Below, piece by piece: positions 10,659 to 36,400 of a stretch of DNA of 64,000 bases. Numbering within the stretch: position 1 is the first letter of the stretch; each line of letters opens with the position of its first letter. The notes beneath the pieces are model-generated. The model ran no database searches and was not told the DNA's origin. It saw only the letters and a list, made by a program, of their open reading frames with translations. A program made the translations under genes and the position numbers. This DNA is from a virus, in IMG/VR virus record IMGVR_UViG_3300036859_000186, positions 1 to 64,000 of that record; one strand, given 5' to 3'.

Positions 10659-10753
10659 TGGCACGGATGAAAAGAGCAGCAGGGATGCGGGTTTGAACTG
10701 CGCGGCTTATGAGGCCGTTCAACCATGATAACCCTACAAAACGACCCGTGTCA
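10659..10753 (-). ncRNA. Y-RNA-like ncRNA copy 1 (carries CAU anticodon stem-loop)
   Basis: CACGGGT-CG...GTAGGG-TTATC...CCCTGC...ATCCGTG; apical CGGC-CTCATAA-GCCG. Confidence 0.65.
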
Positions 10754-10757
10754 AAAA

Positions 10758-10834
10758 TGGTGGAATCGACAGGAATTGAACCTGCAACCCCCTGCGTGCA
10801 AGGCAGGCGCTCTACCATGTTGAGCTATCCCCGC
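10758..10834 (-). pseudogene. tRNA-Ala(TGC)-like gene with defective acceptor stem
   Basis: Intact D, anticodon and T arms and ACCA, but 5' acceptor strand lacks about 3 nt. Confidence 0.7.
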
Positions 10835-10920: not shown

Positions 10921-11004
10921 AACACGGACAAGTTGGGAATGAGGAAGTGGGAGCCATCACGCTTCCCTGTTTGCGATGATAATCCTCACTCATCGGCCCG
11001 TGCT
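10921..11004 (-). ncRNA. Y-RNA-like ncRNA copy 2
   Basis: GCACGGGC-C-GA...GAGTGAGGA-TTATC...TTCCTCATTC...CTT-GTCCGTGT. Confidence 0.7.
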
Positions 11005-19714: not shown

Positions 19715-20659
19715 CTACTCCCTTCCCTGCGCCCATTGCCTAATGGCGTTGGCGTAAACGTCCACGCTTCCACCCTCAAGACCAGGAGCCCGGTTGACTT
19801 CCAGAACGATGAGGCTGCCATCGCGCTTTTCGCCGATGTCCACCGCACCGAAATCGAGACCAAGGGCCTCGACGGCTTCGTGGGCCAGATCACGGTGGGC
19901 CTGTCTAGAGGTTTGCCCATCGTAAAGGATGCGCCAACCCCCGTCCCATGACCTGATCCATGCGTGAGCACGTCGAGTCCCATTGGCACCGTCGAGAGAG
20001 AAGCCCTCTCTCAATGCCTTGACGCCAGCCCGGAGGCTGCGTCCCTTGAAGGAGTGAACCCGGACTTCCTGCACGAGGTCTTCCTTCTTTGCGTAGTAGT
20101 CGCCGCCACGGTTGGCGAGCAGGTCGTTCCCACCGACGTGACTGTTGGAGCGGCTGAGCCATTCTCCCACAGGTCGGCCCGGTTGTGCAACCGGAGCCGC
20201 GATTGCCAGGGCTCCAGTCAGTCCGTTCAGCTTGGCGAGGAGGTCGCGGACACCGTCCACGAGTGGTCCTCGACGGGGAAGAGGTCCCGCAGGGAGTGTC
20301 AGATTGACCAGTTCCTCGGCCGCTTCCTGGGCATCGCGCATGATGGCGATTGCAGGATCGACCGCAGCAGCCACCGGAGGAGGCGCTGCTGGGCGCTGGA
20401 GTGAGACCTGAATTGTTGGAACCCCTTCCCGCGCCAAGAGTTCGGCGTCGGAAAACTTGTTGCGGATGGTCGTGCCGTTCAGAACACGCACACCACGGAT
20501 TTCTGGGACCGCTTCACCCCAGGCAATGACCACGTCACCGGCACGGGCCTTGCGTTCGATGGGAACCTCAGTTCCTCGAAAGCGGCGAGCACCCTGTCCA
20601 AGCGCTTCCGCAAGCAGACGAGCCCCCGTAGAGGCGTTCTTTCTGTAAACGTAAATCAC
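19715..20659 (-). CDS. ATP-grasp peptide ligase (RimK-like)
   Basis: NKF...GVPT, EVRVH, LGLDFGAVD, LEVNRAPGL. Confidence 0.85.
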   Translation of the reverse strand: MIYVYRKNASTGARLLAEALGQGARRFRGTEVPIERKARAGDVVIAWGEAVPEIRGVRVLNGTTIRNKFSDAELLAREGVPTIQVSLQRPAAPPPVAAAVDPAIAIMRDAQEAAEELVNLTLPAGPLPRRGPLVDGVRDLLAKLNGLTGALAIAAPVAQPGRPVGEWLSRSNSHVGGNDLLANRGGDYYAKKEDLVQEVRVHSFKGRSLRAGVKALREGFSLDGANGTRRAHAWIRSWDGGWRILYDGQTSRQAHRDLAHEAVEALGLDFGAVDIGEKRDGSLIVLEVNRAPGLEGGSVDVYANAIRQWAQGRE

Positions 20660-20690
20660 GACTATCCTCCCCGGCGCAGAAATCGCGCCG

Positions 20691-21008
20691 CTAATACCCT
20701 TGCCGTTTTCGGTAATTAACCCTCTTCTGCTCACGCTGCTTCCAACCACTGAGCCACTGTGTGTAACGGTAGGGCCACGTCGGAAAGATGAAGCCGAACG
20801 TCACAATTGTCACTGCGTAAGAGACTACGCAGACTATCGCCGCAACCCACGTCAGAACGAGGTCAAAGAACGATATGGGATAGAACGTCACGAACGCCTT
20901 ACCGGGAGACTGGCCATGGATTACGAGGAAGCCAATGAGCCGGAGAAGGAACAAGGCCGCAGCGGCCAAGCCAATTATGACGAGGATAAGAGCCACGATT
21001 CCCCACAT
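20691..21008 (-). CDS. membrane protein
   Basis: Hydrophobic helices; AAGGAG RBS. Confidence 0.5.
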   Translation of the reverse strand: MWGIVALILVIIGLAAAALFLLRLIGFLVIHGQSPGKAFVTFYPISFFDLVLTWVAAIVCVVSYAVTIVTFGFIFPTWPYRYTQWLSGWKQREQKRVNYRKRQGY

Positions 21009-21009
21009 G

Positions 21010-21165
21010 TTAGGCTCCTTTCTTGGCCCCACAGACGGTGCAGACCCAGCCGTTGTCTTTGGCGGCAAGGTTGTGGACCCTCATGCCAGGACCATACTTC
21101 TTGTCCTGGTATTCGTGAACGCAAGTGCAACCTCGCACGGAGGTAGCTTTCTTAGGATCAGCCAT
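21010..21165 (-). CDS. small Zn-binding phage protein
   Basis: CTCVHEYQD...YG...RVHN...CTVCG. Confidence 0.6.
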   Translation of the reverse strand: MADPKKATSVRGCTCVHEYQDKKYGPGMRVHNLAAKDNGWVCTVCGAKKGA

Positions 21166-21482
21166 AGGACTCCTCCTTTGTAGCGGGGCTGCCTTTGTCA
21201 TCTTCCCACTGATCAAGAAACATTTGCACATCAACAGTGATGTTCTTGAGATCGGTCAAAGCCGTGCCACTCACAGGTCGTTTGGCCATTGCTCGTTTAA
21301 TTTGACTCTCGAAACTGTCGAGACACTCGTCCAGAAGTTCAAGGGCTACCTGAAGGTCTGCTTCCAGACTTTCAGTATAAGCGACGTATTGATCGTCGTG
21401 CTCAATGCTCACCTCGACGACCGTCTCACCTTCTTTGGCTGGCGGTTTGTCGGGCTCCGGCACCATGTCGCATAGTCGCATG

Positions 21483-22592
21483 TTAACCCTCATCATCCCC
21501 AATGAGCGGAGCATTATTCCAAGCAATACGCTCATCGGGCTGGAGTGCTTGAGGAGGAGCCGCAGGTTGCGGCATACGACCCTCTTCAAGAATCATCCGA
21601 CGAAGTTGCTCCATTGCCAGGGCATGATCTTCTTGCTGTTGTGCTTGGATTTCACCTCGTCCGATTCCCGCCCATTCCCGGCGGTTCAGCACTGGTCGTG
21701 GATCATCCGGCTCAAGCCGATCTCGCTCAAATGGAGCAGGTTCGGGGAACGGTTGAGGGGGTGCTGGCATATGGAATACCGCTGCACCACCACGTCCTAC
21801 TGCACGACCGGCCCGACCAACCTGTGCAGGTCGTGGGACATCAAAGGGACCATCGAGGTCCAGGCCCAAGCGACGGCCCGCTACGGCTCCACCGAATTGT
21901 GCATCAGGTGGTCGCACCGGCTGAGGAAGCGGTTGCCCGTCCTCGGTGTGCTGACCGCAGTTGACCTTCTTCGAGTGCAGATTCTTGTAGCCTCGACCCA
22001 ACGTGACTGGCGCTTCACAGAAGTCACATGCCACAGCTTGGGGTCGAACACAGTGGTGGCAGTAGAGGATGGTCCGCCCATCATCCCGACCCACAGTGAC
22101 CATTTCACCCTCGTTTAGCTTCCGGGAGCAAACGCCACACTGAGTTTCGGTGAGATTGGAGGCCGCCAACTTGGCCATCTCGTCGGGTCGCAGGAGAACT
22201 TGACGCAACTGACGGATGACCTTCCCAGACAGAGTGTTGGCTGGAAATGGAAGCTGAAGGACCGCAGCGAGTTTGTCGATGAGGTCTCCATCCTCTCCTT
22301 TGTATTCCTGCCCAAGCTGCTCCAGAGCAAGGTTGATCATGGTCTTCCACGAGGTCCGACCCGGATCTTCGTCCGTGCCGTCGTAGAACTGGAGATGACC
22401 CCAGTTGCCGAACTTGAAGACCCCGTCCAACTGTTTGTAAGGGTCCACATAGTCTCGTGAACTGAACCGCCCGTCCTTGTAACTACGCCAGACGTTGGCG
22501 TGGACATCCTCAAAGCGTGCGCCAGCACCGTGCTCCAGGTAGAGCATGGCGATAACAGCTCGCTTCAGGTAGTCGTTGTAAAGCCTGATCAT
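21483..22592 (-). CDS. hypothetical protein with Zn-finger domain and low-complexity tail
   Basis: CGVC, CHHC, CDFC; GGAGG RBS. Confidence 0.6.
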   Translation of the reverse strand: MIRLYNDYLKRAVIAMLYLEHGAGARFEDVHANVWRSYKDGRFSSRDYVDPYKQLDGVFKFGNWGHLQFYDGTDEDPGRTSWKTMINLALEQLGQEYKGEDGDLIDKLAAVLQLPFPANTLSGKVIRQLRQVLLRPDEMAKLAASNLTETQCGVCSRKLNEGEMVTVGRDDGRTILYCHHCVRPQAVACDFCEAPVTLGRGYKNLHSKKVNCGQHTEDGQPLPQPVRPPDAQFGGAVAGRRLGLDLDGPFDVPRPAQVGRAGRAVGRGGAAVFHMPAPPQPFPEPAPFERDRLEPDDPRPVLNRREWAGIGRGEIQAQQQEDHALAMEQLRRMILEEGRMPQPAAPPQALQPDERIAWNNAPLIGDDEG

Positions 22593-22602
22593 TGTTCCTC
22601 CC

Positions 22603-23817
22603 TTACAACCGTCCTTGAAAATGGACCCCACGGACGAAGTCGTTTCGGCGTCGTTCTCGCTCCGACTCACAATCTGGCATTACACCGGATGCGAGCTGTT
22701 GTTCTAATGGAAGGTCCCGGTGCCGTCCTGCGACCCATCGTTGGGCAGAGCGAGCCACGACCCCTGCTGGCGGAGTTCGTCTCTCAGCCATCTCAGGAAT
22801 TTCGGGAATTGATGGATCGGTGGCGGGGGCCGCATCGCCGGTCCAGTGTTTCTGAGCGGCGGCAGAGTTCCCCCCTGCCGCACTTTTGTAATGGGCGGGT
22901 AGAACCCCTAGTGGATCAGGGTTTTGCCGCCCTTCTGCTCCAACTTCGTTTGCATCACGAACAAGGCTTCCAAGTCTTTGTGATACGCCTTCTTCGCCGC
23001 CTTCCACTTCCTCCGACCGATCTTCTTCGCCCGATACAGCCTCGTCGCCTCGGCGAAAGGTTGTCCCAGGCGGGAGGGAACCTCCGGTCCCCTTAGTCCG
23101 TTTCGTGGATTCTTGTGAGGCCCCAGGGCTCCTGGACCCATTCTTGTCCGTTCCAGTGCTGTCTCCCGTTGCCCCCACCGTAGGGCGGTCATCGTCCTTG
23201 CGACCTCCCTGGTTGTTCACATATCCCACGTTCCGGGATACGCCCCGAAACTCCCAGTGCTTGTTGCTGCACCACACCTCCTCACTCATCGACCAGGGTC
23301 CGCCGAACAATTCCAGCTGGCCCTTGGGCGTGAAGACGACGACCTTCTCGTCGATCATTTCGAGGATGCCAAGACCGTAGTGATGGGCGAGCCAGGCCAT
23401 CGTGCGGCTGTCGCTCCACTTCCCGGAGGGAAGCTTGAATCCCACGTTCTTGACGGCGGCTTCAAGGGCAACGTCCTTGTATTTGCCCCAGTGGCCGTTG
23501 TGAAACAGCACCGGATTGGGTCCTTGACCCTCGATGGTTGTGGTCGCGTTCTCGTCCACCACGAACGGGTGGGTGAGGAAGCGAGATGGCCCACCGCAGC
23601 TTGCGATGCGAAAGTGGAGCACGTAAGGCAGCGGAATCTCTTTGGCAAGGTCCTGGATTTCCCCAAGTTCCATGCCCTTCTTCCACTGCACCCAGGGCTC
23701 ACCCTTGGGACCCTCGACACGCCAAGCGGCACCGGCCCCCTCAGCGTTCGTTTCGTAGGCCCTCTCGATCATGCTCTCGGTTGGGCGCTTCTTCTCTGCA
23801 ATGAAAATGACACACAT
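22603..23817 (-). CDS. class II (Ntn) glutamine amidotransferase
   Basis: Met-Cys N-terminus; HFRIAS, HPF, HNG, SDSR. Confidence 0.9.
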   Translation of the reverse strand: MCVIFIAEKKRPTESMIERAYETNAEGAGAAWRVEGPKGEPWVQWKKGMELGEIQDLAKEIPLPYVLHFRIASCGGPSRFLTHPFVVDENATTTIEGQGPNPVLFHNGHWGKYKDVALEAAVKNVGFKLPSGKWSDSRTMAWLAHHYGLGILEMIDEKVVVFTPKGQLELFGGPWSMSEEVWCSNKHWEFRGVSRNVGYVNNQGGRKDDDRPTVGATGDSTGTDKNGSRSPGASQESTKRTKGTGGSLPPGTTFRRGDEAVSGEEDRSEEVEGGEEGVSQRLGSLVRDANEVGAEGRQNPDPLGVLPAHYKSAAGGNSAAAQKHWTGDAAPATDPSIPEIPEMAERRTPPAGVVARSAQRWVAGRHRDLPLEQQLASGVMPDCESERERRRNDFVRGVHFQGRL

Positions 23818-23889
23818 GGTGAATGCTGCCTCCTAGGGGCACAAAGCGCCCCGTTAAAGTGCCAGTTAACGGACTTCTACCCCTTCTTT

Positions 23890-24630
23890 CTAGACGTTGA
23901 CTCTCCGATGAACGATGAGCGGCTCGTCGTCGAGAGCGACACCCCCCACCACTGCACGCTCTCTCCTGGCCGTTGCCACCAGGAAAGCATTCGTGATTCT
24001 CATGATCTCCTGCACCGCTTCCAACCCTTGTTCGGGGGTCTTCATCATTGGCAGGAGTCTGCACTCAGCCGTCGTGTAACGGCCATAGCAGTAGTTGACG
24101 ACCGAATACCGATTGCCCTCACGGTTCTGGTCGAAATCCTTGGCCGCGTTCGTCGCTTGTTCGTCGGCACTGAAGATGTGCTGACAATAGCGGCTCTTCC
24201 CAGCAAGGCGGTCCCAGATGGCGTGGTCTTTGGGAAGACCAACCTTCTTGGCCCATAGCTCCACCTCAGCCAGAATCGTGGCCGGGTAGGTGTTCACCAT
24301 GATGCGCTGGTAGCTCATGGCGTTCTTGAACGATAGATGGACGTGCATGCCGCAGGTCTGGTTCACAGCCTGCGGATAGAACTTCGCCATCCATCCGGGC
24401 AGCTCTTCGGGTGACAGTGGTGGAGACGGCAGCTCTCCTATGTGGACAATGGGATGATCCTGATCGAGAGAATCCCCATGTCCCACATGAACAGAGCCGT
24501 CGTGACCGATGCGTGTTCCTGCAGGGATCTTAGTCCAACCCCCCTCCAGCTCCACGCCAACCTTGTAAACCCGATTGAACCTCACCCGAATGCCGCTCAA
24601 ATCAATCGGCTTTCCGAGTTTCCCTGCCAT
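23890..24630 (-). CDS. putative amidoligase (amidoligase_2 type)
   Basis: GVELEG, HDGSV, GELPS, CGMHVH, RY...N, ECRL. Confidence 0.85.
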   Translation of the reverse strand: MAGKLGKPIDLSGIRVRFNRVYKVGVELEGGWTKIPAGTRIGHDGSVHVGHGDSLDQDHPIVHIGELPSPPLSPEELPGWMAKFYPQAVNQTCGMHVHLSFKNAMSYQRIMVNTYPATILAEVELWAKKVGLPKDHAIWDRLAGKSRYCQHIFSADEQATNAAKDFDQNREGNRYSVVNYCYGRYTTAECRLLPMMKTPEQGLEAVQEIMRITNAFLVATARRERAVVGGVALDDEPLIVHRRVNV

Positions 24631-24755
24631 TGCTTTTCCTCCCCTCCCCCAAAGATGAGGGAAAAATCCACCTCGACCCTCTCAACAAACGACGTTGGCG
24701 ACGCTTTGCGTTCTCTCGCAAGCGTCTCTCCATATCGGCAGAGCGCTTGGTCATG

Positions 24756-25286
24756 TTACGGCATTTCCTGGGTGCTCACGAGGACATACATGTCCACGGG
24801 CTTCAGGAACTCCTGGTAGAGCGCCCTTGAGGCGTCCTCGATCTTCTTTGCGATGGCTTGCACCATCTCAGTGGTGTAGACGCCCTTGACGCTGAAGGTC
24901 ACACCCTCAGCTTCAGAGATGCCCACGAGCCTCAGGAAGCTCATGTTAATGCAGTCGTATTCGTCATGGAACAGCAGCCGATCTCCAGGCTTGTCCAAAC
25001 GATACGCGGAGCCCAGCTTCCGGCCGACGATGTTCGTCAGGCCCCCATCATTCGCCATGTGATAGCAAGCAAGAGGCTTCGCATCCTCCCCAGTCTGGCC
25101 GACCCAGTAGCGAGCCATAGCCCGCACTTCCATGATATCGCCGGTTCCGATGGCCTTCATGAAGGCTTCGACTTTGGGGTGAGCCCAGATATTGATGCTC
25201 AGTCCTTCGTGGTTGCGGCGAATCCGTGTTCTGATGCACTGCTCGCCACGGGCGTTCTTCTCGATCTGGATGATGTTCGGTTCCAC
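24756..25286 (-). CDS. hypothetical protein
   Basis: GGAGG RBS, GTG start. Confidence 0.55.
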   Translation of the reverse strand: MEPNIIQIEKNARGEQCIRTRIRRNHEGLSINIWAHPKVEAFMKAIGTGDIMEVRAMARYWVGQTGEDAKPLACYHMANDGGLTNIVGRKLGSAYRLDKPGDRLLFHDEYDCINMSFLRLVGISEAEGVTFSVKGVYTTEMVQAIAKKIEDASRALYQEFLKPVDMYVLVSTQEMP

Positions 25287-25866
25287 TGCAGTCCTCCCTA
25301 AAAACTGAACGGCTTCGCCTCAACAGGGACGCCGGGGTCTTGAATGACGGGACGGACGACACCATCCTTGCATCGGACAGTGCCATTCTCGTTGAATTTA
25401 TGTTCGCACTGATAGCATCCACCGCACCGCGAGCAGCGATACGGGAAGATCCTATCATCGTGTTCATCGTGCACTTGGCACTTTAAGTTCATGAAGCAAC
25501 CTCGTTCTGGTTTCGAGATCGACTTGCAAGGCTTCCATCATCTGGAGGGACGCACCAAGCCTCTTTGACAGGTCATTGAGACTCTGCCCGGCTCCAGTAG
25601 CGGCACGAACGTTGTCGATGACAATAGACGCCTCTTCAAGCGTGTTCCTTACAGAGTGCCACGGATGAAGGACCATCCGCCGAAGAGTCGCTTTGTTGCG
25701 TCGGTTTATGTCCATGGCGTTTGGATTCCCAGGCACGCTCCATGATTGGCCGTCTCGAAGTAGAGCCCAAAGGCACCCTCGTAAGAGAAGACTCGAATCA
25801 TGAGCTGACCAGTGGGCCGCTTTTTGAAGCGTCCGATCTTCCAGAGGTCAACGATGAGGGGATTTC

Positions 25867-26907
25867 TCATGATCGAGCCACCGTCTTCTGGAGGAAGTTT
25901 TCCCATCCGCACTCGTGGCCCTCGGGCAGCGTCGTCCAATGCTTCATGGGATCATCAGGGAACCATGCTTCGAGTCCGTCGGTATCGATCTTGGCAACGA
26001 ACTTCTGGAACTGCTTCAGTTCGTGACCAGCCGATAGCCCTCGGTCCGTATTTCCTCCGACGTGGGCTTCGAGGAATTGGGAGAACTTCTCGAAGTTTGC
26101 CTTGGCAAGCCCCACGTCATTGAGGTTGATGGCCCGTCGAACCCTTGGGAGCGGCACCATTCCACGGAGAGTCTTCTCCGCTTCCCAGCGCTTCTCGCCC
26201 ATGATGTCGCTCACCAAACGCCCCAACCCCATCACGAAGGACATGAGCGGGTAAGCTCGAAGCCAGGTGTTGGAGAGCGTTCGGTATTCGACGCCGAAGG
26301 GTTGCTCACGGAACTCACCAGCCCGTCCGTAGACGCGCCGACGAGTTCGCATGAGAGGGTGTCGGTCAAACAGCACCGCTGTGTTGCCGATCACGATGTC
26401 ACAGAGCGCAACGAAGCGCTCATAGCCATCCTCCTCGTGAAGGAGTTCGTTGATGTTGCCGAAGTGCAGGTGCCCACCAGCGGACCGCGTTCGATACGTG
26501 AACGGGTTCACACGGACACCAACCTGCCGCTTGTAAATGCTCTTGCTTGGATTGCACCCAAGCATCTTGACCCGATCAGGCATGGCGTCCATGTCCCGTT
26601 TCGGGATGCGAATCACCGGAGTCCAACAGACCGTGAGGTCGGTGTCTTCCAGTTTGTGCTGAAGGCGACGCATGATGTCGGCCATCATATTGCCAATCTC
26701 AGCACGACAGAACGCTGCCTGTGGGTTGATCTCCAGCTGGATGCCGTCTCGGACGATCTTGCCGAGCCCCTTGAGTTTCATCCCTGCTTCTGGAATCAGC
26801 TCGGACGATGGAACGATGTGACCGTTCCGCGCCAAGAACAACTCTGGGTCCGAACCGAACGATGGATCGGAGTTGTTCTCCACCAATTTCGCATACTGCA
26901 AAGCCAC
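25867..26907 (-). CDS. phiEco32-like COOH-NH2 ligase (type 2)
   Basis: GSDPE, DGIQLE, GCNP, RSAGGHLH, RRRVYGRAG, GVEYRTLSN. Confidence 0.9.
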   Translation of the reverse strand: MALQYAKLVENNSDPSFGSDPELFLARNGHIVPSSELIPEAGMKLKGLGKIVRDGIQLEINPQAAFCRAEIGNMMADIMRRLQHKLEDTDLTVCWTPVIRIPKRDMDAMPDRVKMLGCNPSKSIYKRQVGVRVNPFTYRTRSAGGHLHFGNINELLHEEDGYERFVALCDIVIGNTAVLFDRHPLMRTRRRVYGRAGEFREQPFGVEYRTLSNTWLRAYPLMSFVMGLGRLVSDIMGEKRWEAEKTLRGMVPLPRVRRAINLNDVGLAKANFEKFSQFLEAHVGGNTDRGLSAGHELKQFQKFVAKIDTDGLEAWFPDDPMKHWTTLPEGHECGWENFLQKTVARS

Positions 26908-26976: not shown

Positions 26977-27041
26977 TGTGGACAAGAGATTGCGAGGGAC
27001 CATTTTTATCGCCAAAGATAACGGTCCCAATTCGGCCCACA
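26977..27041 (-). ncRNA. Y-RNA-like ncRNA copy 3 (minimal form)
   Basis: TGTGGGC-C-GAA-TTGGGACC-GTTATC-TTTGGC-GATAA...GGTCCC...CTT-GTCCACA. Confidence 0.75.
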
Positions 27042-27112: not shown

Positions 27113-27541
27113 CTAGTAACGTTCTGTCGTCTTGCTGACTTTCCCTTCCTTCGTCCACTGCGCGATCAGCTTGTTCAGCTGAGTGTAGTCCGGGTTCCAC
27201 ACCACCACGGTTGAGCTGTGGGGAGGATGCACCGGATTCTTGACGAACTCAGAGCGAATGACCGCTCCGAGCTTGTGCTCGGTGACGAACGCCATGAAGG
27301 CGTCCGCATAGAACTTGTGTTCCCCGAGCCACTTCTTGTAGTTCGTGCCCCAGTCCGTCACGTCGGCGAGACACAAGATGATGCACGGCGACCGCATACC
27401 CTTCTTGAGGGCGGCAGCCAGATACGTCTCAAGACTGTCGGCATGGCACAGCCCGCCGATCTCCTGGACGCCACAGTTCTCGACGTAACCCGTTTGTCCC
27501 ATGGTCAGCGCTCTCCTCGGTGAAAGTGATGGCTCATACAT
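27113..27541 (-). CDS. hypothetical protein, paralog of 19358-19711
   Basis: NCGVQEI...LGAVI...KNP...W; start overlaps Ro60 stop. Confidence 0.6.
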   Translation of the reverse strand: MYEPSLSPRRALTMGQTGYVENCGVQEIGGLCHADSLETYLAAALKKGMRSPCIILCLADVTDWGTNYKKWLGEHKFYADAFMAFVTEHKLGAVIRSEFVKNPVHPPHSSTVVVWNPDYTQLNKLIAQWTKEGKVSKTTERY

Positions 27542-29145
27542 TAGACTCTCTCCGCGATGAAGTCGCTGACGATCTGGGGAGCGGCAGAATCGAATCCAGC
27601 CACGTCCAGCGTGCGACGGTCGTCCGGGTCGGCGATGGTGAAGTTCGTCGAGGTCATACCCATGACCACTTCGCAAGCGGCCGGGACGCCCATCTTCTGG
27701 CGATACTGACGGAGGGCTTGCGACGGATGGATGGCACCGGCGTAGGTCTCGTTGTCGGTGATGATGACGAAGCCATCGACCTCAACGCGGTTTTCCATGG
27801 CCCACAGGACGGGCTGAGCGCAGTCGGTGCGGCCGAAGTTGTTGCGCTGTGCAGCTCGGCACACCTCATCGAGGCGCATCTTGGGGGTGATGCCGAGGTC
27901 CACGAAGCGGTCGCAGAACCCGAACGTGTAGTAGTCCTTCTCGACCTTGGCGGTTGCCATCGCCATAGCAGCAGCACCCTCACAGGCACTCAACGGCATG
28001 TTGGCAATTGCGGCTGTCCGCATCGAGCCAGACACGTCGATGCCGAAGACGATCCGTTTGCCGGTCGGCTTCAGAGACTTGAATGCCAGGTAGAACGCAT
28101 CATCGAGAGCGTCCACAACAGCAGGCACTGGCTTCCACGCACCATCACCCCTGACGCCGTGACCAGACGCGTAGGTCTTGAGGGCGATGAGGATCTCGAT
28201 GGGGTGGACGCGTGCCTTGTTCAGCCATTCCTTGTCACCAAGGACAGCGACAACCTTGCGCGAGGCGTCCGAGAGGGGCGCGAGAAGGCCACACTTGGAG
28301 AGGTTGCCCAGGTTGCGGATCATCGCAGTTGCAGGCATCTTCTCCAAAAGAGCAGCCCACACGTCGGGGTCCTTCAGGAATTCGGTGGGGACCATCTCTC
28401 GCGTGAGGCCGTGATTCTGGATGAGTCGGCAGAGGTCACGGGCTGACTCGGCTGACTTGGCAGCCTCAAAGCCTACGATGACCTGGGGAAGCGTGGGTCC
28501 GTCTGCCTTGTGTCCCTCGATGCCATCAACGCACCATTTGAAGATAGCGTTCCGAGCTTCATCTGAAGTCTTCGGGTGCGCCAATCTGAGGACATCCGCA
28601 TTGGACCAGCCGTCCCTCGACTGATACTTGACGACGTGTTGGGCGAGCTTTTCCGTCGGAAGGTCAAGATACCAGTTCGCCAGGGAACTCCGAAGGCCGC
28701 GCCCCAACCCACGAAATGTCGTGACGAAGGCCATGAAATGAAAGAGGTGCGTGGGGATTCGGCAGACCTTCGGGAGAGCAGCCAGTGCCAGCTTTCGAGT
28801 GGCAGGATCTGCAGCAGACGCTGCAAGAGCCAAGGCGAAAATCGCAGGATCGTTCTTCGGTGCTCGTCCTTCATCGGATACCTCCACGATGGTGCGGACC
28901 ACTCTGGCACCATCCGCTTCGATACACCGGATGGTTCGTGCCGCATTCTCCCTCGTCAGTTTCTGAGGAGACGCGTAGTAGCTCCCACCCTCACTGCCGA
29001 GGATCAGGAACCGCAGGAACGCTGCGAAGTCGTCAAGGGCATAGACGTAGCCCCCGGCGCTGTTCTGAACCTGAGCCTCACCCAGGAGTGGTGAAGTCTG
29101 AGGCTGGGCAACACGCGGCCCAATCGAGCTGAACGGTCTCTTCAT
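27541..29145 (-). CDS. rsr: Ro60/TROVE RNA-binding protein (Rsr ortholog)
   Basis: NSAGG, RFLILGSEGGSYY, KYQSRDGWS..DVLRLAHPK, vWA DVSGSM, TDCAQP, TDNET, SIA-like TIADP. Confidence 0.97.
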   Translation of the reverse strand: MKRPFSSIGPRVAQPQTSPLLGEAQVQNSAGGYVYALDDFAAFLRFLILGSEGGSYYASPQKLTRENAARTIRCIEADGARVVRTIVEVSDEGRAPKNDPAIFALALAASAADPATRKLALAALPKVCRIPTHLFHFMAFVTTFRGLGRGLRSSLANWYLDLPTEKLAQHVVKYQSRDGWSNADVLRLAHPKTSDEARNAIFKWCVDGIEGHKADGPTLPQVIVGFEAAKSAESARDLCRLIQNHGLTREMVPTEFLKDPDVWAALLEKMPATAMIRNLGNLSKCGLLAPLSDASRKVVAVLGDKEWLNKARVHPIEILIALKTYASGHGVRGDGAWKPVPAVVDALDDAFYLAFKSLKPTGKRIVFGIDVSGSMRTAAIANMPLSACEGAAAMAMATAKVEKDYYTFGFCDRFVDLGITPKMRLDEVCRAAQRNNFGRTDCAQPVLWAMENRVEVDGFVIITDNETYAGAIHPSQALRQYRQKMGVPAACEVVMGMTSTNFTIADPDDRRTLDVAGFDSAAPQIVSDFIAERV

Positions 29146-30158: not shown

Positions 30159-30225
30159 CGTCGGATAAATTTCGTAGGCAGCGGTTTTATCTTAGAAGGA
30201 TAACGCTACCAGAGCGACCCGACAC
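30159..30225 (-). ncRNA. Y-RNA-like ncRNA copy 4 (carries UCU anticodon loop)
   Basis: GTGTCGGGT-CG...GGTAGCG-TTATC-CTTCTAA-GATAA...CGCTGCC...TTT-ATCCGACGC. Confidence 0.7.
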
Positions 30226-30233
30226 GTCAAATT

Positions 30234-30338
30234 TGGTGGAGGCTTGATAGGCATATGGACAGAGCGGAGCGGTGATGAGGAGACACAATGCTCGTCAATC
30301 GTTGCTGCGTAATCTGCCGCCAACCCACAACAGCCCCC
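30234..30338 (-). ncRNA. 105-nt RNA with alanine acceptor stem and CCA end
   Basis: GGGGGCT/AGCCTCC-A-CCA: G3-U70 and A73. Confidence 0.55.
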
Positions 30339-30346
30339 ATAAATAG

Positions 30347-30447
30347 TGGAGCCAAGGACAAGTGTTTGCAGAGGGGTATTCCTGTGCGCTGCCTTTCGGC
30401 CCGCTTCTAGGTGCCAGATAACCCTCATGCGTCGGCCCTAGGCTCCA
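30347..30447 (-). ncRNA. Y-RNA-like ncRNA copy 5
   Basis: GGAGCCTAGGGC-C-GA...GAGGG-TTATC...CCCTC...CTT-GTCCTTGGCTCC; GCC-GAAA-GGC tetraloop. Confidence 0.7.
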
Positions 30448-32054: not shown

Positions 32055-32819
32055 CTAACGACTTGGCATGAGAATTGGATGACCCTCGTCACCAACCTCC
32101 TTGTAAAGCGCTTCTTTCAGCTGATACATAGCTCGTGCCCACAGCGCTACTGCGTCCGGTGAGGCCGCTTGCAGCACCATTGGGAATTCCCGAGCTGTCT
32201 TCTTGAAGTAGTTCTCTGCCCAACGACGGGCATCCTTCGGCTTGATTCGACAGCCCTCAGGCTTCGTGAGCATTCGAGTCATGTCGTTCAGGTTGTCGGC
32301 CCGGTCTAGAGTCTTAAGTGAGGCCGCGTCCTGATCGTTCGATATCTTCGAGTAGTAGACCACCTTCATGGCCGCTTGAAGGTCTTCGGGCGTCTCGTCC
32401 TTCCAATCCTTCGTGAGGAGCATGACAAGATCGACCGTTCGGTCTGGGAACTTTAACGCAATGAGGTCGTGCTGCATGATATAAGTGTCTTCCACCACAT
32501 CGTGGAGCAATGCTGCTGCCTGTGCTTCCTCATTGAGGCCGATGTCACGAGCCATCTCGAACACCCGAATGGGATGCACGATGTATGGGTCATCGAAGGC
32601 TTTACGCTTCTGTGAGATGTGTGCAGCCGTCGCACACTCCAGCGCTACATTGATGAGCGTATCGCCTTCAGGTTCAGCCACAGGAATCTCCGTATAGGGT
32701 GGTCGCGTCCTAATCAAGTGGTGCTTGCAGACAGGGCAGTCGCCCCAGCTGTAAGTCTCTGAATGGACGGGGTGAGCGATGGGGATTAGGCACCACTCAC
32801 ACCACAATTCATCTGCCAT
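32055..32819 (-). CDS. HD-domain (p)ppGpp hydrolase-like protein (Mesh1/SAH type)
   Basis: AH..Q.RK, PYIVHP, AALLHDVVED, DRADN. Confidence 0.85.
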   Translation of the reverse strand: MADELWCEWCLIPIAHPVHSETYSWGDCPVCKHHLIRTRPPYTEIPVAEPEGDTLINVALECATAAHISQKRKAFDDPYIVHPIRVFEMARDIGLNEEAQAAALLHDVVEDTYIMQHDLIALKFPDRTVDLVMLLTKDWKDETPEDLQAAMKVVYYSKISNDQDAASLKTLDRADNLNDMTRMLTKPEGCRIKPKDARRWAENYFKKTAREFPMVLQAASPDAVALWARAMYQLKEALYKEVGDEGHPILMPSR

Positions 32820-32872
32820 AGCACTAGTTCCTTCGAGGAACAAAAGCTTTTCGTCGAGTGAGCGCCAAGGCA

Positions 32873-33313
32873 TCAGTGCTTGATGTCGTCGCCGCTGATG
32901 TCGATGTCCACCGCTGGCAACACCTCAGCCACATCGCTCTCGACAACCTCACCATCGATCACTGGCTCGGGCTTCTGTCCAGCCTTCGGATCTTTCGGAC
33001 GAGGCCGATTGAAGTAGGTCGTCCAGATGACCTCACGGTCTTCCTTCGAGAACGTCTCGTCACCAGTTGCGGCAAGAGCGAAGGTGATGGCCGATTTACG
33101 GCCCTTTTCCTTGTTGAAGACATCCTGACGAGAGCACACCGCAGTCGCAGAGGTGATGAGGTTCGCCGTGACGAGCTTGCCGTCCTTCTGAACGGTCTCC
33201 CAGATGTCACAGATCGTCGTTCGACGCCCCGGTCGCTTTCCGCGTGGTTTCTCTTGCTGGCGTTCGAATGCCAGAGCAATCGTTCTGTTCTTTGGCAATG
33301 TGACGTGTATCAC
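32873..33313 (-). CDS. conserved phage protein
   Basis: AVCS.QD.FNKEKGR motif. Confidence 0.6.
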   Translation of the reverse strand: MIHVTLPKNRTIALAFERQQEKPRGKRPGRRTTICDIWETVQKDGKLVTANLITSATAVCSRQDVFNKEKGRKSAITFALAATGDETFSKEDREVIWTTYFNRPRPKDPKAGQKPEPVIDGEVVESDVAEVLPAVDIDISGDDIKH

Positions 33314-33361: not shown

Positions 33362-33490
33362 TGGTGGGTCGTGGTGGATTCGAACCTGCCCAGATCCCTC
33401 TCCCGTGGACATCTATCGTTACCCCACTACTGTTGCCGAGGAGGCCCCAGCAGTGACGATAGCCCAGCCGTCCCAGCTGGCTGACGACCC
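33362..33490 (-). ncRNA. tRNA-like RNA with anticodon arm replaced by long hairpin
   Basis: GGGTCGT/ACGACCC-A-CCA; D arm; GGTTCGAATCC T loop; extended CTATCG...CGATAG helix. Confidence 0.7.
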
Positions 33491-33494
33491 AAAC

Positions 33495-36400
33495 TTACTC
33501 GCCCTTATGACATAGGGTTGAGATGTATCGGCGTTCCTTCTGATGGTTGTGGGCTGGCCCTTCGCACCATGGACACCACATCCATGCGTTGACGGAGTTC
33601 TGCGACATGGGGCGTAGGACGTGCCAGATGTGACCACAGACAACCCACTTTAGGTATTGCAATGGTAGATACCAATGCAGATACAGAGCGAGTCGCTCTT
33701 GCCACGTCTTCTGACGCTTCCCAATGCAGCCACACTTAGCACAGTGGGGCACAGGGGCGTCGTGGCATTCGTCGGTGACGAGTGGGCCGCCACACTCGCA
33801 GGTTCCGATTCTATCGGTCACGGTCCTTGTCACCTTTCCAACCCCGCTTGAGCTGTTCGAGGTTGTATTTTGCCATGATGTCGTTCAATGCTCGGATGGT
33901 CATGAAAACTGCCAACTCGTTGGGTTCACCATAGTGGAGCTGGTCCCACAGCTTCTGAGACTCATCCTTGAGCAGTTCATGGGCGGGATGCTTCAACAGT
34001 GGCATTGCTTCTCTCCTTATCCCAACGCCAGACACCGTCCTCGTAGATCATGACGGTGATGCAGTCGAACTTGCACTTGTGGATGGTGCCGTTGGCCGGG
34101 GGCTCGTTCTGTGTGCTCATAAAGTCCCCAAGGGACGAGAGGCAACACCTGAAAAGCCCACCTTGAGCAATGCCGTAAGGCACGCGGCTACCCATTACCA
34201 TTCCTCATCGTTGTCGGGAAAGGCTCGGGTCTCCTTGGCATAGCGCTTGCACTTGGTGCAGAAAGCAGGCCAACAGTCCCCAGTCATGCCAAGTAACACA
34301 CGATGGCTCTCACCGTCGTCGCAGGTGCCGCTTTCCAACTCTTCGCTGGTGGTCAGGAGAGCGGGATCAGGAGGCTTCTCATCGTTGTCACAGGCTCCGG
34401 CCTCTATGACTTCGAGGGCCTCACGCATGTCATCGAGGTTCATCACCACATCACCTTTTTACAGCGCCTACATTGTGCGAACGCCTCAGAGAGGAGCACC
34501 GGCCCATGAAAGAGCGGTGGATACCACACCGGATCGTGTCCCCACACATTGCATTGGGTCATGAGGGGCATCAGCTCCCAATAGAGCAAGAGCGCAATGA
34601 ATGTGAGGACAAAGATACCGAGCAGGTCCATTAGCCCTTCCGTCGATTCTGGCGGTTGATGGCACGCTTCGACAAGATGCGGCCACGGTTGTGGCGCTTC
34701 GATGCCTGACGAGCAGCCCAGCCCACACCAGCCTTCTCAGTGCCAATGCGGTTCAGTTCCCGCTTGATTCGTTTCTCTCTTTTCCGCATGTCAGCCCCGG
34801 TCTCGCTGGTGAAGGTCGTCGGTGTATTCGACATCGTCGATCTTGAAGTTCTCCAGCACCTTCGTGAGGGCGATCTTGGCATCGACCAGTTGGGCTTGCG
34901 TCTGTTGAGCGGCCTTAATCTGGTCGTCGATCACGATGATTTGACGGTCGAGGGCCAACTGAGCATCACGAAGCTTGAGAAGGGCACTGTTGTTCATCGT
35001 AAACACGGTAGTCTCCTCCTTGAGAAAAAGGCAGCACTGATCGTCATTGGGGCACAACCTCACCCCATCCCTACAAATGAGGGTGCAGCGCAGCGTCATG
35101 AGAGGTTGAACCTCACCTTGCCGAAGTCCACGACACGGCCGAAGATGCGGCGTCTAGCGAGGGAGCCCATGCTCTCTTCCATAGCTTCGGCACAGTCGCG
35201 CAGCATGATGTATTCCTCAACGGAGACGGGCACAGATATTTGGAGGCCACGGCCGCCGTTGGCCATCTTTTGACGAACGCTCTTAACGTGGCGCTTAGTC
35301 GAGGGTAGGCCACCCAAACGCCGACGAAAGACTTCTAAGAGCATGTCCGGTCTCTGCCTCAGAAAGCCTGTCAAAATCTTCCTCTCCGTCTTCGAGCCTG
35401 AGAGCCTGTTGACGATGGTTGAGAGGCTCTGACCCTTCATCAGATCCTTCGACCTCAAGAGCCCTGAGCTTTCCAAGCTCGCGTTCGAGTTCGAAGTAGT
35501 CGTCGGGGCTGAGTTTGTCTTCTTCGCCATGCCTGAGCACGTCCTCGATGTCTGTGATACGCTGAGTGTATCGGCTAGGCACGGTCGCGTTCCTTGAGCC
35601 GGGGGGCACGAACCTTGTGGATGCGTTCGACAAGGAGCTTGTGGTTGACCTGGGGCTGAAGCTCCTCGCCGCATCGATCGACGAGGATGGCTAGTCCTTC
35701 GGGGCTGACCCTCAACTCCTTGACAATCTCGGTGCCCTTACTGACGAGGGTTTCGCCGTTGGGCAGCAGGTTTCTGTAGGTGACGGGTCGCACAATGGCG
35801 ATCACCTTTCGCATAGGGACGCCGAGCTTTGTCACTTCTTGTGTTACTTCGCAACGGAACATCACGAACTCCTTGTAGCTTCATCTCATGAAGGTGTTGC
35901 TGCTCACTATCATGCAAGAGATATGCACGATTGTGAGGATTTAAGTCTCCTTGCAGTATGAGGGCTGCAGCGTTCTTGTCTCGCACGACCTTTGGAAAGT
36001 GTGACCACATGAGAACCTTATTGGAGTGCTGGGGGTTCAGACTCTCAAACTTTAGGGACCTATCCGCCTACGAACGACTTCCACCATTGTCGAGCGAACC
36101 CAACACACGTGTCCATCGAGTGACAGCTATAATAATGGAATCCCACTCAATTACCATGGTCAGTGAGCTTCGATTCCCAAGGCAAATCCTCTCTACTCCA
36201 GCTCCCCTTGTTATCGCAAATGCTTTACCGCTAAGCTACCAGCCCCATTGCTGGGGCCGGGGTGGGTTCGAACCACCGACCTTTTGCGAACTTGGGCACG
36301 CTTCGTTCAAGAATGATTGCCCGTCCCCCCAACCTTAGCCGTGAATGAGCCATCCAATGACGAGAGATGCCTCTTCAGGGTTCATTTTCCCTTGGGCTCG

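What the first reader, a model, noticed from the sequence alone, without database searches (positions are those of the whole stretch)
33362..33490. tRNA body whose anticodon loop is replaced by a ~55-nt hairpin
Seen: perfect 7-bp acceptor stem with ACCA, D arm, T loop GGTTCGAATCC and a long variable region. The anticodon stem continues into CTATCG-TCACTGCTG...CAGTAGTG...CGATAG. The apical CCTCCTCG could also pair with the variable-region CGGGAGAGG. In one register a TAG triplet sits at the anticodon position, buried in the helix. The insert is too short for a group I intron. Inference: A73 plus a long variable arm suggests Leu ancestry. Bacterial LeuRS largely ignores the anticodon, so this RNA could be charged but non-decoding and nuclease-resistant.
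Basis: partly seen in the sequence, partly recalled or inferred. Interest (0 to 1): 0.7.

Follow-up and report, generated by a model that had tools for sequence, protein, structure and literature searches.

The report
Anticodon-less tRNA-Lys mimic in Ro60 phage
A soil phage that carries its own Ro60 protein and a set of Y RNAs also encodes a 129-base RNA that keeps the top half of a lysine tRNA (acceptor stem, T loop, CCA end) but has a long hairpin where the anticodon should be, so it is most likely a non-decoding tRNA look-alike; no relative could be found to show whether it is conserved.

Summary
The described sequence is real. It lies on the minus strand at 33362-33490 and fills an intergenic gap. 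It has a perfect 7-bp acceptor stem plus ACCA, the T loop GGUUCGAAUCC, and a 15-bp bulged hairpin in place of the anticodon loop. Default ARAGORN and Rfam tRNA, tmRNA and YrlA models do not call it. The T stem has two mismatches, and U8 and A14 are absent.

Its ancestry is tRNA-Lys, not Leu. The acceptor is 7/7 identical to E. coli tRNA-Lys, and the T arm plus 3' end is 26/28 identical.

The complete 76-kb phage encodes Ro60/Rsr 4.2 kb away. It also carries six Y-like RNAs, a YrlA-like permuted tRNA and tRNAs.

In other Rsr phages I found dozens of tRNA-shaped RNAs with a Y-RNA module in the anticodon arm. This scan had noted such RNAs before on other DNA. This element lacks their Ro-binding handle and scores only 16 bits on their model.

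No orthologue exists in the two accessible relatives that share the flanking gene, so covariation could not be tested. No RNA data exist.

Best reading: a processed, non-decoding tRNA-Lys mimic that belongs to the phage's Ro60/tRNA-mimic RNA set. A decaying tRNA gene remains a serious rival.

The parts
33484..33490 (-). acceptor stem, 5' strand GGGUCGU (RNA nt 1-7); U at -1; begins 4 nt after the stop codon of ORF 33495-33833
   Evidence: pair probability 0.87-1.0; identical to E. coli tRNA-Lys 5' end
33464..33480 (-). D-region hairpin CCAGCUG-GGA-CGGCUGG (nt 11-27). An alternative 3-bp D stem GCC/GGC with loop AGCUGGGAC is possible. Contains a CAGC-CAGC duplication relative to tRNA-Lys.
   Evidence: (7-bp form P 0.89-0.98, 3-bp form P 0.02)
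33413..33462 (-). long hairpin replacing the anticodon stem-loop (nt 29-78): lower stem CUAUCG(U)/(A)CGAUAG, 3'-side bulge GGGUA, upper stem CACUGCUG/CAGUAGUG
   Evidence: no second copy in the genome
33433..33447 (-). apical 15-nt loop GGGCCUCCUCGGCAA (nt 44-58) with a GCC/GGC mini-stem; CCUCCU is anti-Shine-Dalgarno-like
33387..33412 (-). expanded variable region (nt 79-104), predicted hairpin UGUCCA-CGGGAGAGGGAUC-UGGGCA; 18 nt longer than the V loop of tRNA-Lys
33373..33389 (-). T arm (nt 102-118): GCAGG-UUCGAAU-CCACC; the stem has C.C and A.A mismatches; alternative pairing GGU/ACC
   Evidence: no bacterial tRNA carries this 3' strand
33362..33372 (-). acceptor 3' strand ACGACCC, discriminator A, encoded CCA (nt 119-129)
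27541..29145 (-). context: phage Ro60/Rsr gene (TROVE + Ro60 vWA domains), 4.2 kb downstream on the same strand
   Evidence: (E 4e-40 and 2e-60)
36197..36300 (-). context: YrlA-like circularly permuted tRNA domain
   Evidence: Rfam RF02553 34.8 bits, E 2e-7, below the gathering score
31956..32032 (-). context: nearest of six stand-alone Y-like RNAs (GGGYCG...GUUAYC...YUYRUCC). The others are at 10659-10753, 10921-11004, 26977-27041, 30159-30225 and 30347-30447.

Best explanation
**What it is.** The element is a phage gene for a non-decoding tRNA mimic derived from a tRNA-Lys(UUU)-type gene.
- It keeps the 'top half' that tRNA-processing enzymes read: a 7-bp acceptor stem, U at -1, the T loop, and A73-CCA.
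- The anticodon stem-loop has been replaced by a 15-bp bulged hairpin.
- The D and variable regions have been rebuilt into stable helices.

**How it is made (inferred).** It is transcribed inside a polycistronic message with its flanking genes. No promoter or terminator motif lies next to it. It is cut out by host RNase P and 3' trimming, like the tRNAs and Y-like RNAs interleaved elsewhere in this genome. It then accumulates as a roughly 129-nt RNA ending in ACCA.

**What it does (inferred from context only).** It works as one of the phage's tRNA-part mimics that accompany its Ro60/Rsr protein. It would present a tRNA-Lys acceptor/T-arm surface, plus a displayed hairpin, to a host or phage tRNA-binding factor. 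It takes no part in translation. My odds are roughly: Ro60-linked partner or decoy 0.3; another trans-acting role 0.2.
For: **The element itself.**
- The tRNA top half is real and beyond chance.
- Its acceptor is 7/7 and its T arm plus 3' end 26/28 identical to tRNA-Lys, while the D region is only about 50% identical. That is uneven conservation.
- All inserted or rebuilt segments form perfect helices: 7, 7+8 and 6 bp, with z -2.64.
- It exactly fills a 181-nt intergenic gap on the coding strand. It starts 4 nt after a stop codon, and a Shine-Dalgarno sequence and GTG follow it.
- The same fold is predicted with flanks included.

**The genome.**
- It encodes Ro60/Rsr, a YrlA-like RNA and six Y-like RNAs interleaved with tRNAs.

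**Other Rsr phages.**
- In 160 other Rsr loci, tRNA bodies carrying foreign modules in the anticodon arm are common next to rsr. They show strong covariation in acceptor, D and T stems.
- Several of them display a tRNA-Lys anticodon loop.
Against: - No orthologue and no covariation: the two relatives with the flanking gene lack it. nhmmer, BLAST and pattern scans found nothing.
- No RNA data are available.
- The T stem is broken by two mismatches that no bacterial tRNA shows. U8 and A14 are missing. The predicted fold is not a cloverleaf. Recognition by tRNA enzymes is therefore not assured.
- It lacks the Ro-binding handle: GGNCCG / CUUGYCC is absent, and it has GUAAC where the family has the conserved UUAYC. 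It scores 16.3 bits (E 0.32) on the chimera model, below ordinary tRNAs. Rfam YrlA does not match it.
- It lies 4.2 kb from rsr, not beside it.
Confidence: 0.5

Rival explanations
1. A decaying phage tRNA-Lys gene. An insertion destroyed the anticodon loop, after which the T stem, D arm and V loop drifted. The RNA, if made, has no function.
For: - Two adjacent substitutions break the T stem, and U8 and A14 are lost.
- It is not called by ARAGORN or Rfam.
- No homologue exists anywhere searched.
- The phage has no other tRNA-Lys.
Against: - Decay should not leave the acceptor 7/7 paired with CCA intact.
- Nor should it turn every altered segment into a perfect helix.
- The hairpin is not a repeated mobile palindrome.
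- Dense phage genomes rarely keep 129 nt of junk that fits a gap exactly.
Confidence: 0.2
2. A divergent member of the tRNA-Y RNA chimera class that still binds the phage Rsr. Binding would use the remnant GGGCC in the apical loop and the Y-like upper stem CACUGCUG/CAGUAGUGGG-GUAAC.
For: - The architecture is the same as the chimeras: tRNA body, anticodon stem, inner stem, and a bulge where GUUAUC sits.
- The inner strand GUAG..GGG-GUAAC resembles the family consensus GUAGGG-UUAUC.
- Chen et al. 2014 (PMC4201824) report that Ro60 mainly contacts the 5' strand, and that only that strand is recognisable in some YrlA RNAs.
Against: - The invariant CG after GGNC, the first U of UUAYC, and the whole CUUGYCC strand are missing.
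- The chimera model gives 16.3 bits, all of it from tRNA features.
Confidence: 0.15
3. A cis-acting processing signal ('tRNA punctuation'). The tRNA-like top half only serves to have RNase P cut the polycistronic mRNA between ORF 33495-33833 and ORF 32873-33313.
For: - It sits 4 nt after one ORF and 48 nt before the next.
- No promoter or terminator motif lies nearby.
- RNase P needs little more than an acceptor/T-arm minihelix with RCCA (established knowledge).
Against: It does not explain the elaborate 15-bp hairpin and the two further helices. Ordinary tRNAs and Y-like RNAs do this job elsewhere in the genome.
Confidence: 0.1
4. A decoding tRNA with an intron: tRNA-Leu(UAG), as ARAGORN reads it at a relaxed threshold. 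The hairpin would be spliced out.
For: ARAGORN -ps90 gives tRNA-Leu(tag) with a 44-nt intron.
Against: - It is found only below the default threshold.
- The intron position is 30/31, not 37/38.
- The spliced loop UAUAGAU has A at position 33.
- 44 nt cannot self-splice.
- The phage has no RtcB, and no splicing endonuclease is known in bacteria.
- The tRNA body is Lys-like, not Leu-like.
Confidence: 0.03
5. An attP-type remnant: a copy of the 3' end of a host tRNA-Lys gene, used for or left by site-specific integration.
For: The 3' 28 nt are 26/28 identical to a bacterial tRNA-Lys.
Against: - The complete genome has no tyrosine integrase and has direct terminal repeats.
- The matching 5' acceptor strand is also present.
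- No bacterial genome among 185,579 species carries the exact 3' sequence.
Confidence: 0.02

Closest known systems
YrlA, the tRNA-like bacterial and phage Y RNA (Rfam RF02553; Chen et al. 2014, PMC4201824)
   Same: It is a non-decoding RNA built from tRNA parts (acceptor-like stem, T loop). It is encoded in a genome that has Ro60/Rsr. M. smegmatis YrlA is even cut by RNase P and receives CCA.
   Different: - YrlA is circularly permuted: its ends lie in the Ro-binding stem and its acceptor is closed by a loop. Here the ends are at the acceptor and the distal arm is closed.
- There is no GNCGAAN0-1G handle.
- RF02553 does not match it, although it does match 36197-36300 in the same genome.
tRNA-shaped RNAs with a Y-RNA module in the anticodon arm, found here beside rsr in other phages and metagenome contigs (model R1). 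I found no description of them in the papers searched; this scan noted them earlier on other DNA.
   Same: They have a tRNA body with open acceptor ends, sometimes with encoded CCA. A foreign stem occupies the anticodon arm, with a 3'-side bulge between the inner stem and the anticodon stem.
   Different: - Members have canonical U8, A14, D and T arms and the invariant CUUGYCC / GGNCCG / GUUAYC handle.
- They sit within a few hundred bases of rsr.
- This element has none of these features and scores 16 bits against their 55-113.
tRNA-Lys(UUU) of Proteobacteria (E. coli lysT family)
   Same: The acceptor stem GGGUCGU/ACGACCC, A73, CCA, the T loop and the 5' T-stem strand are identical.
   Different: There is no anticodon loop. 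The element has +4 nt in the D region and +18 nt in the V region, and the T-stem 3' strand is CCACC instead of CCUGC.
tRNA-like domain of tmRNA
   Same: Acceptor stem, T loop and CCA are present, the anticodon arm is replaced by a long helix, and the D arm is irregular.
   Different: There is no G3.U70, no tag reading frame and no pseudoknots. It is 129 nt long. ARAGORN finds no tmRNA at its default settings.
Engineered 'tRNA scaffold' for expressing recombinant RNAs (Ponchon and Dardel 2007; from my own knowledge, not read here)
   Same: A hairpin of interest is grafted into the anticodon arm of a tRNA, so that the cell processes and stabilises it.
   Different: That is a laboratory design with an intact tRNA body. 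Here the body itself is also remodelled.

Membership tests
tRNA (Rfam RF00005 / ARAGORN) | Detected by the covariance model or ARAGORN at standard thresholds | tested here: not met
   No call. No tRNA hit even at E<=10 in a 1-kb search. It is detected only with ARAGORN intron mode at -ps90.
tRNA (Rfam RF00005 / ARAGORN) | 7-nt anticodon loop on a 5-bp stem | tested here: not met
   The stem continues into a 15-bp hairpin with a 15-nt apical loop.
tRNA (Rfam RF00005 / ARAGORN) | 7-bp acceptor stem, discriminator, CCA, T loop UUCRANY | tested here: met
   GGGUCGU/ACGACCC, A, CCA; UUCGAAU.
tRNA (Rfam RF00005 / ARAGORN) | 5-bp T stem, U8, A14, regular D arm | tested here: not met
   GCAGG/CCACC has 2 mismatches. 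Position 8 is C. There is no A14. A 7-bp hairpin is favoured in the D region.
YrlA (RF02553) | Match to the Rfam covariance model | tested here: not met
   A whole-genome search at E<=10 hits 36197-36300 (34.8 bits) and not this element.
YrlA (RF02553) | GNCGAAN0-1G Ro-binding motif and permuted order V-T-AS-D (PMC4201824) | tested here: not met
   The order is that of a normal tRNA. The nearest string is AACGAUAG, with 2 mismatches.
YrlA (RF02553) | Bound by Rsr | not testable with these tools
   Needs immunoprecipitation or a gel shift.
   16.3 bits (E 0.32 over 1.39 Mb) against 55-113 bits for members and 20-50 for plain tRNAs.
GUUAYC | tested here: not met
   Only GGGCC(U) and GUAAC are present. 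There is no CUUGYCC strand.
tmRNA | G3.U70 alanine identity, tag ORF, detection by ARAGORN or Rfam | tested here: not met
   It has G3-C70. There is no tmRNA call at default settings. The relaxed-mode call spans the upstream ORF and is not credible.
tRNA with group I intron | Intron of about 200 nt or more with a group I core in the anticodon loop | tested here: not met
   The insert is about 44-49 nt. No Rfam intron match at E<=10.

The most novel reading that the evidence does not exclude
The element is a working, so far undescribed kind of Ro60-system RNA. It would be a CCA-ended mimic of the tRNA-Lys acceptor/T-arm half whose anticodon arm is a Y-RNA-like upper stem without the Ro handle.

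Together with the phage's stand-alone Y-like RNAs and its YrlA-like RNA, it would show that this phage lineage has split the 'handle' and the 'tRNA mimic' of Y RNAs into separate molecules. The mimic would titrate or recruit a factor that reads tRNA-Lys, for instance a host tRNA-Lys-directed defence nuclease or a tRNA-processing enzyme.
Probability: 0.15. Interest if true: 0.7.

Novelty: new variant of a known kind. Interest (0 to 1): 0.5.

Why it matters
Phage-encoded Ro60 with Y RNAs is barely studied, and what the tRNA-like part of bacterial Y RNAs does is an open question (PMC4201824, discussion).

This genome offers an unusual natural dissection:
- handle-only Y-like RNAs;
- a YrlA-like permuted tRNA;
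- this acceptor-open, anticodon-less tRNA-Lys mimic without a handle.

If the RNA is made and stable, it gives a direct way to ask which factor reads the tRNA-like surface independently of Ro60 binding. tRNA-Lys is the known target of several phage-defence nucleases (PrrC, PARIS; from my own knowledge). Several Ro60-partner RNAs in other phages display a tRNA-Lys anticodon loop.

On its own, a single-copy element with no relatives and no expression data remains only a lead.

Tried and rejected
**Searches for relatives, all blank**
- megablast and blastn against 50,697 phage records.
- Exact 3'-end pattern and a 'long tRNA-Lys' pattern in IMG/VR.
- nhmmer and blastn-short against 160 fetched Rsr loci.
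- The search for related loci with the HD protein, with Rsr as a single sequence, and with the alignment of flanking protein P0001. The last returned only the L006 contig again.

The closest Rsr relatives (P0005-P0011, 59-63% identity, Logan/ENA) could therefore not be inspected.
- No RNA holder is listed. The only run holding the stretch is one soil-metagenome DNA run, probably the source.

**Ideas tested and dropped**
- GTDB scan for the 3' 25-mer gave nothing. The 20-mer gave one chance hit in coding DNA with no tRNA.
- Repeat or mobile-palindrome idea: there is no second copy of the hairpin in the genome.
- Loop-loop kissing is not significant against composition-preserving shuffles.
- tmRNA reading: only at -ps80, and implausible.
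- attP reading: no integrase.
- RNA-repair context: no RtcB and no CCA-adding enzyme in the phage.
- Pfam and PHROGs give nothing for the flanking small ORFs.
- 'Acceptor stem + NCCA' alone is common by chance (153 sites in the genome) and is not evidence.
- CsrA-type GGA motifs and a 19-codon ORF inside the element were considered by eye and dropped as within chance.

**Papers not held:** the Ro60 review (Annu Rev Microbiol 2020) and Burroughs and Aravind 2016.

Full report
**Observation**

The feature is on the minus strand of 33362-33490. As RNA it reads GGGUCGU-CAG-CCAGCUGGGACGGCUGG-G-CUAUCGUCACUGCUG-GGGCCUCCUCGGCAA-CAGUAGUGGGGUAACGAUAG-A-UGUCCACGGGAGAGGGAUCUGGGCA-GGUUCGAAUCCACC-ACGACCC-ACCA.

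- a perfect 7-bp acceptor stem followed by ACCA;
- the T loop;
- a two-tier hairpin in place of the anticodon loop;
- complementarity between the apical loop and the variable region.

RNAfold gives -58.3 kcal/mol, z = -2.64 against dinucleotide shuffles. Pair probabilities are near 1 for the acceptor stem, the long hairpin and a 7-bp hairpin in the D region.

A descriptor made of T loop, at least 3 of 5 T-stem pairs, a 7/7 acceptor and NCCA finds three sites in the real 76-kb genome: two ordinary tRNAs and this element. It finds 0.053 per simulated genome. The tRNA-like top half is therefore not chance.

The element begins 4 nt after the stop codon of ORF 33495-33833. It ends 48 nt before the GTG of ORF 32873-33313, which has its own AGGAGG. 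No promoter-like or terminator-like site lies on its strand.

**What it is not**

- Default ARAGORN and Rfam at gathering scores call seven and eight tRNAs in the window but not this element. Even at E<=10 in a 1-kb search, no tRNA, tmRNA, intron or Y RNA family matches.
- ARAGORN reports 'tRNA-Leu(tag) with a 44-nt intron' only at 90% of its threshold. The intron is at position 30/31, and the spliced loop has A at position 33.
- The T stem GCAGG/CCACC has C.C and A.A mismatches. Position 8 is C, and there is no A14.
- The cloverleaf costs 12 kcal/mol more than the minimum-energy fold. In that fold the 5' T-stem strand pairs into a variable-region hairpin.
- The apical-loop/variable-loop duplex (-11.9 kcal/mol) is reached by 14% of composition-preserving shuffles.
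- It is not a repeated palindromic insertion.
- It is not an attP. The genome is complete, has direct terminal repeats and has no tyrosine integrase.

**Ancestry**

BLAST against all complete E. coli genomes places nt 102-129 on tRNA-Lys at 26/28 identity. An alignment with the annotated gene shows the following:
- the 5' acceptor strand is identical (7/7);
- the D region is about half identical, with a CAGC duplication;
- the anticodon loop is replaced;
- the variable loop is enlarged by 18 nt.

The two differences in the 3' part (CCUGC to CCACC) are exactly what breaks the T stem. No tRNA in 185,579 bacterial and archaeal species carries that strand next to this acceptor.

**Context**

The window is part of a 76,344-bp IMG/VR phage genome from soil. 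It has a distantly T5-like terminase and a family A polymerase.

On the same strand it encodes:
- a Ro60/Rsr orthologue, 4.2 kb downstream (TROVE and Ro60-vWA domains);
- a SpoT-type HD protein and a GNAT;
- a YrlA-like permuted tRNA domain at 36197-36300 (RF02553, 34.8 bits, E 2e-7);
- six stand-alone Y-like hairpins interleaved with tRNAs.

The Y-like hairpins share GGGYCG...GUUAYC...YUYRUCC. I first saw them in earlier notes of this scan, then checked them by extraction and alignment with six more copies from two related contigs.

**Relatives**

Through an alignment of Rsr homologues I fetched 160 Rsr-encoding loci. A descriptor scan and then a covariance model (R1) showed dozens of 98-160-nt tRNA-shaped RNAs directly beside rsr. 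They have normal acceptor, D and T arms and a Y-RNA module in the anticodon arm...CUUGYCC-loop-GGNCCGA-stem-GUUAUC....
- 16 of 19 modelled pairs show compensatory changes.
- In 27 of 44 strong members the module sits between nt 28 and 29 of an otherwise intact 5-bp anticodon stem. That stem carries a canonical 7-nt loop, four times the tRNA-Lys loop CUUUUAA.
- These look like YrlA with the ends moved to the acceptor.
- I found no description of them in the papers searched. The scan had already noted such RNAs in other phages.

**Is the element one of them?**

Its layout is the same: tRNA body, anticodon stem, inner stem, and a 3'-side bulge where GUUAUC sits. Its inner strand CAGUAGUGGG-GUAAC also recalls the family consensus GUAGGG-UUAUC.

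Against that:
- it lacks the CG after GGNC, the first U of UUAYC and the entire CUUGYCC strand;
- R1 gives it 16.3 bits (E 0.32 over 1.39 Mb), less than plain tRNAs, and the alignment shows the score comes from tRNA features only.

Membership is therefore not shown.

The only accessible relatives that share the flanking gene P0001 are L006 and L086, at 33-38% identity. They have stand-alone Y-like RNAs and tRNAs around that gene but no orthologue of the element. No covariation test was possible, and no RNA run holds the sequence.

**Reading**

*Shown:* it is a tRNA-Lys-derived, strongly structured, single-copy element without an anticodon loop. It lies in an intergenic gap of a phage that carries Ro60, Y-like RNAs and a YrlA-like RNA.

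*Inferred:*
- It is released by RNase P and 3' trimming. U at -1, the 7-bp acceptor and RCCA fit what is established for RNase P substrates, and M. smegmatis YrlA behaves so (PMC4201824).
- It acts as a non-decoding tRNA mimic.
- A link to Ro60, or a decoy role towards a tRNA-Lys-reading factor, rests on context only.

Uneven conservation (top half kept, rest rebuilt into perfect helices) argues against simple decay. Still, the broken T stem and the lack of any relative keep the pseudogene reading alive at about 0.2.

**Verdict**

The element is a new variant of the known kind 'tRNA-like non-coding RNA of Ro60 systems', of moderate interest until relatives or transcripts are available.

Noticed in passing
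L063:11802-12190, L035:9443-9704, L004:9421-9829, L002:1663-2020, L037:7925-8248, L042:11727-12063, L110:207-676, L119:1343-1714, L106:8002-8676 and others: There are dozens of 98-160-nt tRNA-shaped RNAs directly beside rsr in phage and metagenome contigs, often in tandem with 3-10-nt spacers. They have normal acceptor, D and T arms (16 of 19 modelled pairs covary) and a Y-RNA handle (CUUGYCC-loop-GGNCCGA...GUUAUC) in the anticodon arm. That is YrlA with open acceptor ends and a closed Ro helix. I did not find them in the papers searched.
   Followed up: partly
e.g. L012:9734-9856, L010:3507-3632, L035:9574-9704, L002:1663-1791, L110:207-330: In 27 of 44 strong members the Y module is inserted between nt 28 and 29 of an otherwise intact 5-bp anticodon stem, right after GUUAY. 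The stem carries a canonical 7-nt anticodon loop: CUUUUAA (Lys) four times, plus CUCAUAA, CUUGUAA, AUGCAAA, CUUCUAA and others. The 'V' hairpin of YrlA may thus be a retained anticodon stem-loop (my script chose the D and V lengths that maximise pairing, so some of the 27 may be false).
   Followed up: partly
L006:9406-9500 and L086:4136-4230: A 95-nt tRNA with anticodon UAU, a long class II-type variable arm, A73 and encoded CCA is conserved at 95% identity between two relatives. It has compensatory changes in the variable-arm and T stems. It lies between the P0001 homologue and rsr. A long arm is odd for an Ile-type anticodon.
   Followed up: partly
window 30234-30338 (-): A 105-nt rod-shaped RNA with a 7-bp acceptor-like stem GGGGGCU/AGCCUCC (G3.U70), A73 and CCA but no D or T arm, lying between two Y-like RNAs. 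A similar G3.U70 + ACCA RNA of 146 nt with a T arm is at L055:1469-1614 (-).
   Followed up: no
window 36140-36330 (-): A YrlA-like RNA: stem, V loop AGGUC, T arm, a 9-bp acceptor-like stem closed by GCAA, D arm, stem. Rfam RF02553 gives 34.8 bits (E 2e-7, below the gathering score of 69). A GAACGAAG motif lies upstream, and an outer CCCAAG/CUUGGG pairing is possible.
   Followed up: partly
window 10761-10831 (-): Rfam calls a tRNA (48.8 bits) that ARAGORN does not report. It lies inside the array tRNA-Met, Y-like, this tRNA, tRNA-Phe, Y-like, tRNA-Leu, tRNA-Gln, tRNA-Cys.
   Followed up: no
L041:17038-17175 and L041:16224-16360: These are further tRNA-like RNAs in an Rsr phage with a 7-bp acceptor and a good T arm. 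The D arm is replaced by a plain hairpin and the middle is long and branched, without the usual handle. They are the closest structural analogues of the element that I saw.
   Followed up: no
window 2693-5488 (-), 19715-26907 (-), 32055-32873 (-): Three protein features: a uracil-DNA-glycosylase domain fused to a family A DNA polymerase (931 aa); a phiEco32-type COOH-NH2 ligase / ATP-grasp cluster downstream of rsr, shared with L003, L085 and L087; and a SpoT-type HD_4 protein with N-terminal CxxC pairs.
   Followed up: no
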